The position numbers and the translations under genes were made by a program. From positions 576,001 to 640,000 of the forward strand of contig OZ220696.1 in NCBI GenBank assembly GCA_965116495.1: DNA of 64,000 nucleotides, written 5' to 3'. Under the pieces are notes generated by a model. That model was not told the origin of the DNA, made no database searches, and worked only from the letters and a program-made list of their open reading frames with translations. The DNA comes from Gammaproteobacteria bacterium. GTDB lineage: Bacteria > Pseudomonadota > Gammaproteobacteria > Eutrophobiales > Eutrophobiaceae. The stretch's first letter is position 1. Each line of letters begins with the position of its first letter. Below, in pieces: positions 43,218 to 58,913 of this stretch.

Positions 43218-43334
43218 TCCTGGCGGCCATAGCGCGTTGGTACCACCCGATCCCATACCGAACTCGGAAGTGAAACGACGTAGCGCCGATAGTAGTGCGG
43301 GTTTTCCCGTGCGAGCGTAGGTCACCGCCAGGGC
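43218..43334 (+). rRNA. rrf: 5S rRNA
   Basis: CCTGGCGG...CCGAACTCGGAAGTGAAAC...AGGTCACCGCCAGG. Confidence 0.97.
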
Positions 43335-43341
43335 TTAACAC

Positions 43342-43378
43342 AAAGCCCCTGATCTATGAAGGTCGGGGGCTTTTTTAT
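43342..43378. terminator. Rho-independent terminator after 5S (probably bidirectional)
   Basis: AAAGCCCCTGATC-loop-GGTCGGGGGCTTTTTT. Confidence 0.85.
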
Positions 43379-43422
43379 ATCTCGAACTTGGGTGACCTAC
43401 GCGACAATTTTGCAGGAGCAAA

Positions 43423-44136
43423 CTACAAATTGACAGGGTCATCGGACAATGCAATAGAAATGGCCTTCCTTGCTAATAATCGAGTCGAGTCTAAACATGG
43501 TAGGGGAGAGATTTCATCGTTCATTAGCAAGGGTAGTTCGGTACATCCAAGTATGACGCCATCACACCCCTGCTCTTTATATTTCCGGATGAGCCCCTGA
43601 AAATATGAGGTAGAAATTTCTTCAATACGTCCAGTATATAATTCTTCCCATATAACTCGATCAATTTCCCGAATTTCTTTCTCATTCGGTGTAATGTATT
43701 CGAGATTTTCCTTATCCAGTACGCGTTGATAAATAGAGCCTCTCATAGTGCAACCTGCTCCCAAGATAAGTAGTTTTTCCATACTACGCGCTTTGCCTTC
43801 TTCCACTGTCACTTCGCATATATGCAGACAGGGTAAGGAAAGTTCATCGCGGATTAAATCAAGGCTATGATGTATCCCATTATCTGCACAAATTGCAAAA
43901 TCAGCTCCAATAGTTTTAAGTTTATCTACCGAGTTGGCTAACACCGCGCTCGCTGATACCCAATCAATATTATTATCATCTGTGAAGTGTTTCATGTAAT
44001 TTTCGAGAGAGAGCGTATGCAAAGTTACCTCCGGATGACGAAAATCACCTAAGATTTCAGCTGCCTCTTTACAGATAGTCGTATAACACAGTGCGGCACC
44101 CTCCGGACTAGTACCAACTATTCCGATATGTCTCAC
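43423..44136 (-). CDS. Aspartate/glutamate racemase-family protein
   Basis: HIGIVG.SPEG...Y, Cys in AICAD and in ILGCTELP; GTG start at 44136 with GGAG RBS. Confidence 0.88.
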   Translation of the reverse strand: MRHIGIVGTSPEGAALCYTTICKEAAEILGDFRHPEVTLHTLSLENYMKHFTDDNNIDWVSASAVLANSVDKLKTIGADFAICADNGIHHSLDLIRDELSLPCLHICEVTVEEGKARSMEKLLILGAGCTMRGSIYQRVLDKENLEYITPNEKEIREIDRVIWEELYTGRIEEISTSYFQGLIRKYKEQGCDGVILGCTELPLLMNDEISPLPCLDSTRLLARKAISIALSDDPVNL

Positions 44137-44407
44137 AGAAGTTTCTCCAGTATTTTGTGCGAGTTTATATGCCGTAGTTTCTATATTGGCAAGAGTTCCA
44201 GTACAACACATCGCGTATAAGTTTAGAACACCTTAGCGCTAGCGTGTTCGTACAAACCATTCTAAAAGTAAACATTTTTGATCGCCCATGCGACAAAGAT
44301 GATTGGCAATTCAACATTTATTGACAGGGCTTAATACGACATTGAGAGTAAAGTTTGTCCCCATACGAGGAATAATTTTGAACTATTGCCCAGGGGGGAA
44401 TTATTAC

Positions 44408-57344: not shown

Positions 57345-57441
57345 AGTCGTTCTTCCGGTTTATCGACCAACACCGGATTGAACCGTCTGGTCTGGTATGA
57401 AACAATTGAAGCAAATTCATGGAAAAAAAGAACGGGCAAAA

Positions 57442-58785
57442 ATGAAAAGAAGAGATTTCATGAAATATACCGGTGCGAGCTGCGCGATGCTTGCTGCCAC
57501 TGATAGTCTCGCAGCAATAGATGACTGGAGCTCTATCCATCCACCGGTAGTTGGGGAGCTGGACCTCAATGAAATCAATATAGTAGACACGCATGTGCAT
57601 CCACCCCACCCGATCACGTTGAGCGAATCTTACGATAAATGGAATTCATCCTTTGTTGGTTCAATGCTGCCCGGTTATGAATACGAAGGTAAGGAACAAT
57701 TAAGGAAGAGACTGTCATCCGTATTCAAGCAACACCTGTATAACATGCCGAGACAAACCGGTTATTACAACTATGTAGCAAGGGTGTATGGTGTAAAACC
57801 CGATTTAGACGGGTTTAACTCAGTTGTTACCAGAGGCATAAAAAGCGGTTTCAGCAGTTATATAGCATCCATTCTGGACCGGGAAAAAATAGAAAAGGTA
57901 GTATTGGAATCACGTGAAATTGAAGCCAGACGGCCGGAGAGTCCAATCCCATCCGATCGATTTGTATGGAGTTACAATATTGCTAGGATTATTCAACCGG
58001 AATGGGCTGCCGAGAAAGGATTAAGTTCTCTAAGGGATGTCGTCGCCGAAATAAGTAATATCCTGGAGCGCTGTGTGGCTGATGGTTGTGTCGGATTCAA
58101 GGTTAATGTGGCCTATTACAGGCCCCTGGGTATTGATTTGATTGATGCTGAAACGGCGGAAAAGGCCTTGCGGAAACTGCTTAAAAACCCTGCTACCTCG
58201 TTTGTACCATTCAGTAACGTTGCGGATTATCAAGAAACCGACATGCAGGAAGCGTTTCGCAATTACCAGGACTTCTTACTCAGGCATATTTATATCAAAG
58301 CAGGCGAGTTGAAGTCACGGGTTATTATTCATACCGCGGTGGCATTGCACCCGGCATTGAGGTTTGATTTCAATAGTCCATTAAGATTGAGAGATGTATT
58401 TCTGGATGACGAAATCAAAAAAGTAGAGACCCGGTTCCTCCTGATTCATACCGGGTATCCGTATCATCAGCACGTTGCGGCAATGCTGAGCCAGTTTCCT
58501 AACGTGTATACGGATCTTTCTTTCTATTCAAAGTTTCCCGGTGTGTTGGAAGAGACGTTGAGAGCCTTTCTGGCTTTGGCGCCGGCTGACAAGGTAATGC
58601 ATGGTAGTGATTCCAATAATGTACCTGAGGAGATAGGTTACTGCGCCTGGAATGTTCGTCAGGTCCTGGCGAAAATATTAAGAGATTACAAGTCCAATTA
58701 CGGCTGGAGTCAGTCCAATTGCGAAGAGATCGCAAATAAAGTATTACACGAAAATGCGAAAAGGCTTTTTTCAATCGACGGCTGA
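57442..58785 (+). CDS. Amidohydrolase-family metalloenzyme with Tat signal
   Basis: MKRRDFMK twin-arginine leader; DTHVHP, GFK..AY, IHT, LIH.GYPY, HGSD. Confidence 0.85.
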   Translation: MKRRDFMKYTGASCAMLAATDSLAAIDDWSSIHPPVVGELDLNEINIVDTHVHPPHPITLSESYDKWNSSFVGSMLPGYEYEGKEQLRKRLSSVFKQHLYNMPRQTGYYNYVARVYGVKPDLDGFNSVVTRGIKSGFSSYIASILDREKIEKVVLESREIEARRPESPIPSDRFVWSYNIARIIQPEWAAEKGLSSLRDVVAEISNILERCVADGCVGFKVNVAYYRPLGIDLIDAETAEKALRKLLKNPATSFVPFSNVADYQETDMQEAFRNYQDFLLRHIYIKAGELKSRVIIHTAVALHPALRFDFNSPLRLRDVFLDDEIKKVETRFLLIHTGYPYHQHVAAMLSQFPNVYTDLSFYSKFPGVLEETLRAFLALAPADKVMHGSDSNNVPEEIGYCAWNVRQVLAKILRDYKSNYGWSQSNCEEIANKVLHENAKRLFSIDG

Positions 58786-58858
58786 GCAGCCTGGTGAGAA
58801 GGTAATCATCCGTCTATAAGCATTGTGGAATAAAGTCGCGCCAGTCTGGGCCGGCGCC

Positions 58859-58874
58859 AGGTCACCGCCAGGGC
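58859..58874 (+). repeat. Direct repeat of the 5S rRNA 3' end (putative att site)
   Basis: AGGTCACCGCCAGGGC is identical to 43319-43334 and is followed by a similar spacer and a terminator. Confidence 0.75.
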
Positions 58875-58880
58875 ATAATA

Positions 58881-58913
58881 AAAAAGGCCGGTCGTCAGAC
58901 TGGCCTTTAGTTT
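58881..58913. terminator. Bidirectional rho-independent terminator
   Basis: AAAGGCCGGTC-GTCA-GACTGGCCTTT between convergent genes. Confidence 0.82.

What the first reader, a model, noticed from the sequence alone, without database searches (positions are those of the whole stretch)
43319..58908. Integrase-less ~15.5-kb island bracketed by the 5S rRNA 3' end: candidate rRNA-anchored gene-capture system
Seen: the last 16 nt of 5S (AGGTCACCGCCAGGGC, 43319-43334) recur exactly at 58859-58874. In both places a similar spacer follows (TTAACACAAAG vs ATAATAAAAAAG) and then a terminator. The genes in between are accessory, several look visibly AT-richer than the receptor beyond 58927, and a 23S fragment lies inside at 57262. 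Known: tRNA-targeting islands duplicate the 3' end of their target and displace its terminator in exactly this geometry; 5S is not a usual target. Inference: DNA was inserted at the 5S 3' end, either by a recombinase acting in trans or by recombination anchored in conserved rRNA, perhaps repeatedly, with rRNA scraps marking cassette borders. No integrase is visible in the interval.
Basis: partly seen in the sequence, partly recalled or inferred. Interest (0 to 1): 0.82.

Follow-up and report, generated by a model that had tools for sequence, protein, structure and literature searches.

The report
Gene blocks stacked behind rRNA operon
Behind this bacterium's only ribosomal RNA operon, blocks of metabolic genes shared with other species are separated by leftover pieces of the operon's own end, a pattern found across its family that likely arises when incoming DNA uses the conserved rRNA genes as a landing site by ordinary recombination, without an integrase.

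Summary
In detail: the 16-mer occurs only twice in the 4.34-Mb genome, a decayed 23S piece lies at 57262, and no integrase is near. It is not one 15.5-kb island with an att-like repeat. It is the first two of several stacked blocks behind the single rrn operon, each ending in a leftover rrn end. Relatives give an empty site for the first block (G005). They show that 8 of the 16 bases already lie in the neighbouring DNA (G015), a microhomology join, and that the TonB receptor is not the fixed flank. The 3' part of the 23S, the 5S and the terminator group with a species (G022) that is not the nearest kin by core genes; the switch lies inside the 23S. Same-strand rRNA leftovers behind genes occur in 3 of 21 genomes of the genus and 8 of 39 of other genera, starting at many different places, which argues against a site-specific recombinase. 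Best reading: rRNA-anchored additive gene capture by homologous recombination plus microhomology joins. This scan noted the same kind before in Asgard archaea and myxobacteria (unchecked notes). New variant of known additive islands.

The parts
36491..38037 (+). 16S rRNA of the genome's only rrn operon; sides more often with the nearest kin by core genes (G001, G019)
39056..43134 (+). 23S rRNA with two introns (41058-41403, 41438-42181; LAGLIDADG ORF 41665-42147 in the second)
42253..42441 (+). Inferred left crossover zone: informative sites switch from G001/G019-like to G022-like
43219..43334 (+). Functional 5S rRNA; its last 16 nt are the first copy of the repeat
43342..43373 (+). Current rrn terminator, of the type shared with G022, G016 and G002
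43423..57238 (.). Block A, 10 genes: amino-acid racemase, TonB-dependent receptor, enoyl-CoA hydratase, short-chain dehydrogenase, ATC-hydrolase-like protein, two AraC regulators, indolepyruvate ferredoxin oxidoreductase family protein, a membrane protein without family match, acyl-CoA dehydrogenase. 95-96% identical to the block directly behind 5S in G002; absent from that place in G005
57262..57328 (+). Decayed 23S piece at the right border of block A
57317..57343 (+). Predicted hairpin plus T run: the end of the 23S piece fused to the 3' arm of a G015/G020-type rrn terminator; the DNA after it matches what directly follows the working rrn terminator in G005
57397..58785 (+). Amidohydrolase gene (second block); found 0.2-23 kb behind 5S in 9 relatives at 92-95% identity
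58859..58866 (+). 8-nt microhomology shared by the amidohydrolase-flanking DNA (as in G015) and the 5S 3' end
58859..58908 (+). Leftover 5S tail plus rrn terminator of the G015/G020 type (88% over about 65 nt to G020's working rrn end)
58927..61266 (-). TonB-dependent receptor: first gene of an older mobile block, not a fixed flank

Best explanation
The DNA behind the single rrn operon is a stack of gene blocks whose borders carry leftover rrn ends, and it likely grows when donor DNA from related species crosses over into the near-identical 23S/5S genes and is joined on its other side without long homology. Shown: stacked blocks, same-strand leftovers at block borders, a change of ancestry inside the 23S, an 8-nt microhomology at 58859, many different leftover starts, no recombinase gene in the zone. 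Inferred: (1) a donor piece carrying the 3' part of its rrn operon plus downstream genes enters the cell (route unknown); (2) RecA-type recombination in the rRNA puts the donor's 23S end, 5S, terminator and cargo in place; (3) the far end is joined upstream of the old rrn end, either directly at a microhomology or because the donor was a circle, so the old end survives as a direct repeat behind the cargo; (4) that spare end decays and is trimmed by short-homology deletions. Many exchanges would instead use shared downstream genes as a second anchor and leave no scar.
For: Empty site for block A in G005 and the same block behind 5S in G002. Microhomology already present in G015. Core tree puts G000 with G001/G019 (99/99); the rrn 3' end puts it with G022 (99/99) (AU p 0.0047). 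Informative sites G001:G022 are 54:30 upstream and 1:30 from 42301 on. 17,038 nt at 98.7% with G022 against 84-86% in core genes. Three terminator types recur in two separate core clades. Leftovers behind genes in 3 of 21 genus genomes and 8 of 39 genomes of other genera, all on the operon's strand. No profile hit in the other 4.25 Mb of G000 or in 329 kb of unrelated loci. Long leftovers with internal deletions in G059 and G079. ComEC, DprA-family and ComM-like ORFs are present, though these also ring in 8-11 of 14 control genomes.
Against: No event was observed; no circle junction was seen in contigs of 4 runs (contigs drop rare forms). No genome of the same species was available, so no exact donor or recipient allele. 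18 of 21 genus genomes show no leftover behind genes although their cargo varies. Only one junction (58859) could be read against a donor-like sequence; 18 nt before the 23S piece are of unknown origin. The 5' part of the operon is itself mosaic (a G022-like patch at 39396-39740, left out of the site count). One 23S piece in G108 and one 16S-like piece in G104 lie on contigs whose place relative to rrn is unknown. Four genus genomes have a short tail duplication with one constant breakpoint tied to a hairpin repeat, so a second, site-directed process also acts here.
Confidence: 0.7

Rival explanations
1. Cargo moves only by ordinary double-crossover replacement (rRNA on one side, shared genes on the other); the leftovers come from separate local duplications of the rrn end within one chromosome, later decayed.
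For: Shared downstream genes (amidohydrolase, OsmC, deacetylase) exist in 9, 12 and 12 relatives and could serve as right anchors. Most genomes have variable cargo and no leftover. This mode is proposed for SAR11 HVR2 (PMC2217521, passages).
Against: The leftover terminators at 58883 and at G000:C1:659800 are of another type than the working one, and leftovers sit where homology to relatives changes. A local duplication would copy the genome's own terminator and need not fall at block borders.
Confidence: 0.15
2. A nuclease or small mobile repeat starts the events: the intron homing endonuclease cuts rRNA alleles, or the hairpin repeat that inserts in the 5S tail duplicates it, and repair brings in cargo.
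For: The ancestry switch lies just behind the LAGLIDADG intron. The hairpin repeat sits at one 5S position in G008, G016, G019, G022 and G053 and has dozens of copies in G000. Long variable target duplications were described with restriction genes (PMC2853133, passages).
Against: 13 of 16 relatives give no long match to this intron pair, yet their cargo varies. The G000 leftovers carry no hairpin repeat. The 3' exon is simply the only unbroken homology between intron and 5S.
Confidence: 0.08
3. A site-specific recombinase acting in trans uses the 5S 3' end as attB, as integrases use tRNA ends.
For: The geometry at 43319/58859 resembles tRNA islands; the genome holds 9 tyrosine-recombinase matches elsewhere.
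Against: Leftovers start at many places from 23S to terminator; half of the 16-mer pre-exists in the flank of G015; donor alleles reach about 900 nt upstream of the supposed att site; an exact 15-nt core recurs far from 5S in only 1 of 23 genomes; no recombinase domain in 11 ORFs of the interval or 45 ORFs of the next 60 kb.
Confidence: 0.05
4. Assembly artefact at the rRNA operon.
For: The genomes are metagenome assemblies; the confirming runs may be the source sample.
Against: Contigs bridge both junctions in 4 of 4 runs; leftovers differ from the working genes by several to 33%, which collapse or duplication errors do not produce.
Confidence: 0.02

Closest known systems
Additive flexible genomic islands at tRNA/tmRNA genes (Alteromonas, PMC4898812; Ca. 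Actinomarinales, PMC7771536; passages)
   Same: Cassettes pile up at one RNA gene end, recent ones leave a direct repeat of that end, near-identical cassettes occur in different species.
   Different: The anchor is the rrn 3' end; repeats start at many places over more than 1 kb; rRNA alleles upstream are replaced too; no integrase in the zone.
Homology-facilitated illegitimate recombination (described in PMC2884548, passages; original papers seen only as reference entries)
   Same: One homologous side, one join without long homology; microhomology at 58859; uptake genes present.
   Different: Shown in transformation experiments and, as recalled, mostly with loss of recipient DNA; here recipient rrn ends are kept as repeats and the uptake route is untested.
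[quoted passage not shown]
   Same: Insert under 20 kb, no other mobile element, duplicated target of variable length over 30 bp.
   Different: Defined for restriction-modification genes; the rRNA case has a 21-nt insert inside 16S. Here the cargo is catabolic and transport genes and the two target copies come from different lineages.
SAR11 HVR2 / O-chain cluster between 23S and 5S (PMC2217521, PMC4033161, 10.1101/2024.03.20.585866; passages)
   Same: rRNA genes proposed as conserved zones for homologous exchange of neighbouring DNA.
   Different: Replacement between two intact rRNA anchors; here additive growth behind an intact operon with one rRNA anchor and leftovers.

Membership tests
Integrase-type island at an RNA gene 3' end | Integrase in the island or nearby | tested here: not met
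Integrase-type island at an RNA gene 3' end | One fixed att core and crossover point | tested here: not met
   variable leftover starts; ancestry switch inside 23S
Integrase-type island at an RNA gene 3' end | Direct repeat of the gene's 3' end with displaced terminator | tested here: met
Additive flexible genomic island | Same locus, variable number and kind of cassettes, near-identical cassettes across species | tested here: met
Additive flexible genomic island | tRNA/tmRNA target or flanking integrases/transposases | tested here: not met
   no tRNA in the zone
Homology-facilitated illegitimate recombination | Homologous crossover on one side | tested here: met
   (inferred from allele switch)
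Homology-facilitated illegitimate recombination | Microhomology at the other join, formed in the same event | tested here: inconclusive
   8 nt at 58859; could stem from a later deletion
Homology-facilitated illegitimate recombination | Uptake of linear DNA, RecA dependence | not testable with these tools
   uptake genes present; uncultured organism
Insertion with long target duplication | Restriction and modification genes in the insert | tested here: not met
Insertion with long target duplication | Target duplication over 30 bp, variable, no other mobile element | tested here: met
   67-nt 23S piece; longer ones in G059, G109, G053
SAR11 HVR2-type replacement island | Variable region between separated 23S and 5S genes, replaced whole | tested here: not met
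   23S and 5S are 84 nt apart; cargo is downstream and stacked

The most novel reading that the evidence does not exclude
The 3' end of the rRNA operon is a general, recombinase-free landing site: blocks flanked by a working and a spare rrn end loop out as circles carrying a piece of rRNA and re-enter any relative with 96-99% identical rRNA, so genes and rRNA alleles flow together between species that are 12-25% apart in core genes, across a whole family and perhaps across both prokaryotic domains.
Probability: 0.3. Interest if true: 0.78.

Novelty: new variant of a known kind. Interest (0 to 1): 0.56.

Why it matters
rRNA genes are the one long stretch that stays nearly identical between species whose other genes are too far apart for easy recombination. 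If they serve as the anchor for adding genes, they explain integrase-free islands in genomes with one rrn operon, give a route for gene flow across species borders, and mean that the 23S 3' end and 5S travel with cargo and can mislead as lineage markers. The leftovers give a countable, directional scar that can be surveyed in complete genomes, and island finders that require a tRNA or an integrase would miss it.

Tried and rejected
uvrC as the fixed right flank: it follows rrn in G005, G006 and G011 but is about 425 kb away in G000. OsmC as a vertical flank: it lies 0.3-60 kb behind 5S in 13 genomes, but G000's copy is only 81% identical to G001/G019 and 90% to G016/G022, so it has been exchanged too; the 60 kb is a distance, not one insertion. 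Terminator-like match at G000:C1:646936 (35 bits), also weakly in G016: too weak, not counted. G094 23S-like piece (15 bits, no gene before it) and a possible fused tail in G007: not counted. Excised circles: no back-joint in contigs of 4 runs, which cannot show absence. Source of block A elsewhere: a family search sampled only 2 other genus genomes and found no DNA match to the block, only a 66% paralogous piece in G010. G016 could not be placed in the core tree. The upstream control covers 90 kb in 9 genomes only. tRNA 3'-end repeats were seen but the output was cut and not analysed. The first look-up of earlier findings returned only ordinary E. coli rrn notes.

Full report
Observation. The genome is one contig of 4,341,124 nt with one rrn operon; the 16-mer occurs twice against 0.017 expected. 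The 23S piece (57262-57328, 94%) has four changes at positions that are unchanged in 16 of 16 relatives. The interval has 45-47% GC against 54.7% for the genome. The 11 ORFs scanned in it (of 12 listed at 150 aa or more; one antisense ORF left out) are catabolic, transport and regulatory genes or unassigned. Contigs of four runs from two samples of one study bridge both junctions with even depth; no piece spans the whole stretch and the runs may be the source.

It is a stack, not one island. I read the DNA behind 5S in 21 genomes of the genus including G000 (1.6-79 kb each; G012 and G021 had no 5S match). In G005 the working 5S and terminator are followed directly by the DNA that in G000 starts at 57337: an empty site for block A (43.4-57.26 kb). 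G002 has block A directly behind 5S at 95-96% identity, followed by a different gene. The 23S piece therefore sits exactly where the earlier rrn end would be, fused to the 3' arm of a terminator. Behind the amidohydrolase, G000 follows G015 up to an 8-nt word that is also in the 5S tail, then continues as 5S tail and a G015/G020-type terminator. A third terminator leftover lies at G000:C1:659799, just before a 17,038-nt block that is 98.7% identical to G022. The TonB receptor at 58927 is 1.7 Mb from rrn in G020 and far from it in G004 and G009. Pfam scans of 45 of the 85 ORFs listed in the next 60 kb (those I took as main frames) found no integrase or transposase.

The rRNA end came with the cargo. 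On a 3.1-kb core stretch beside the tRNA-Trp/Thr/Gly/Tyr cluster (rpoB region by recalled gene order, not annotated here) G000 groups with G001 and G019 (88%; support 99/99), and G022 (86%) with G014 and G015 (tyrS agrees). On 42441-43405, G000 groups with G022 (99/99); holding G000, G001 and G019 together is rejected (AU p 0.0047; I had seen the tree before the test). Informative sites favour G001 over G022 54:30 in 16S plus 23S 39750-41057 and 1:30 from 42301 to 43334; for G019 51:29 and 2:36. Sites are not independent, and I left out the ITS and 39056-39749, which holds a G022-like patch. The switch lies between 42253 and 42441. Three terminator types each recur in the clades G002/G018/G020 and G014/G015/G022.

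Spread. Leftovers with genes between them and the operon: G000, G005 (last 5 nt of 5S plus terminator, +1.6 kb) and G019 (130 nt of 23S, +6.2 kb, E 4e-10), 3 of 21. In 39 genomes of other genera of the family (up to 20 kb each, three under 6 kb), 8 have them: G052, G053, G059, G079, G085, G104, G105, G109. Three of the 39 were picked because one search showed a second match; among the other 36 the count is 6. The copies in G109 and G053 are whole 5S genes, and G109's could be functional. G023 has none in 39 kb. All lie on the operon's strand. Starts range from early in the last 23S exon to the terminator, and G059 and G079 show internal deletions. Controls: no profile hit in the other 4,246,224 nt of G000 (faster filters), none in 329 kb of other loci, and in 90 kb upstream in 9 genomes only the 16S genes and one 16S 3' piece in G059, which lies 11 kb behind that genome's own 16S gene on the same strand. 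In whole-genome 5S searches of 81 genomes the second matches lay within 11 kb behind the operon, apart from G066, which has two full copies on separate contigs. Against: pieces in G108 and G104 of unknown place, and most genomes have no leftover.

A second process. G008, G016, G019 and G022 (4 of 21) have a 174-256-nt duplication of the 5S tail and terminator with one breakpoint, next to a hairpin repeat common in G000; G054, G055 and G090 have similar short duplications. These carry no genes (apart from a short open frame across G022's) and were counted apart.

Mechanism. Variable starts, the pre-existing 8-nt word and donor alleles 900 nt upstream of the repeat rule against an att site. The simplest account is a homologous crossover in the 23S/5S that brings in the donor's rrn end and cargo, a join without long homology on the far side that keeps the old end, and later decay. 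Whether that join forms in the same step (homology-facilitated illegitimate recombination) or by entry of a circle followed by deletion is open; long, internally deleted leftovers show that trimming happens. ComEC, DprA-family and ComM-like ORFs are present but common.

Known kinds. Closest are additive islands at tRNA ends (PMC4898812, PMC7771536), insertion with long target duplication (PMC2853133; PMC3457768), homology-assisted illegitimate recombination (PMC2884548) and SAR11 HVR2 (PMC2217521, PMC4033161, 10.1101/2024.03.20.585866). I saw passages of these, and for PMC3457768 the outline and part 1 of section 16; also passages of PMC12421898, PMC3784515, PMC10770853 and one reference entry in PMC12831460; no supplements were read. 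Ten searches listed no paper whose title or abstract start describes additive islands behind rrn with rRNA leftovers; the library lacks most subscription papers. Notes of this scan report the same kind in Asgard archaea and myxobacteria; I met them after forming my reading, did not check them, and took two paper leads from them.

Verdict. Real; a new variant of additive islands, anchored at the rrn 3' end and likely driven by ordinary recombination. Interest 0.56.

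Noticed in passing
window 41058-41403 and 41438-42181: Two introns in 23S around a 34-nt exon, the second with a LAGLIDADG ORF; the sites look like L1917 and L1951 of Coxiella (recalled). Long matches in only 3 of 16 relatives (G001, G009, partly G018).
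   Followed up: partly
window 43391-43402: An inverted copy of the 5S 3' end lies about 58 nt behind 5S; 14 of 60 genomes have 8 nt or more in the 100 nt behind the terminator against 13 of 577 control windows, and it follows each lineage's own 5S allele. Function unexplained.
   Followed up: partly
L031, L047, L048, L050 (first 300 nt behind 5S); L206: A hairpin repeat of about 75 nt, with dozens of copies in G000, sits at one position of spare 5S copies in five genomes.
   Followed up: partly
window 36361-39037: Five copies of a 126-nt repeat in the rrn leader and spacer, directly before 16S, tRNA-Ile and 23S.
   Followed up: no
G059:C1:679400-692400; G079: G059 has about 12 kb between 16S and 23S ending in a 16S 3' leftover; G079's 16S is 465 kb from its 23S.
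   Followed up: partly
L184 (G079, 2-12 kb behind 5S): Genes that look like a type I restriction-modification set (by eye, not scanned) lie between two rRNA leftovers.
   Followed up: no
window 39188-39278: A long AT-rich hairpin insertion near the 5' end of 23S, variable among relatives.
   Followed up: no
window 1-8000: AT-richer stretch (42-46% GC) at the start of the window.
   Followed up: no
G000:C1:1009417-1011783: Three tyrosine-recombinase matches in a row next to tRNA-Leu(taa), with a tRNA 3' repeat about 20 kb away: a conventional island.
   Followed up: no
L094 18942-19355 and L095 5879-16689: PIN-domain gene just before the third leftover terminator; an inositol-catabolism-like cluster in the block shared at 98.7% with G022.
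   Followed up: no
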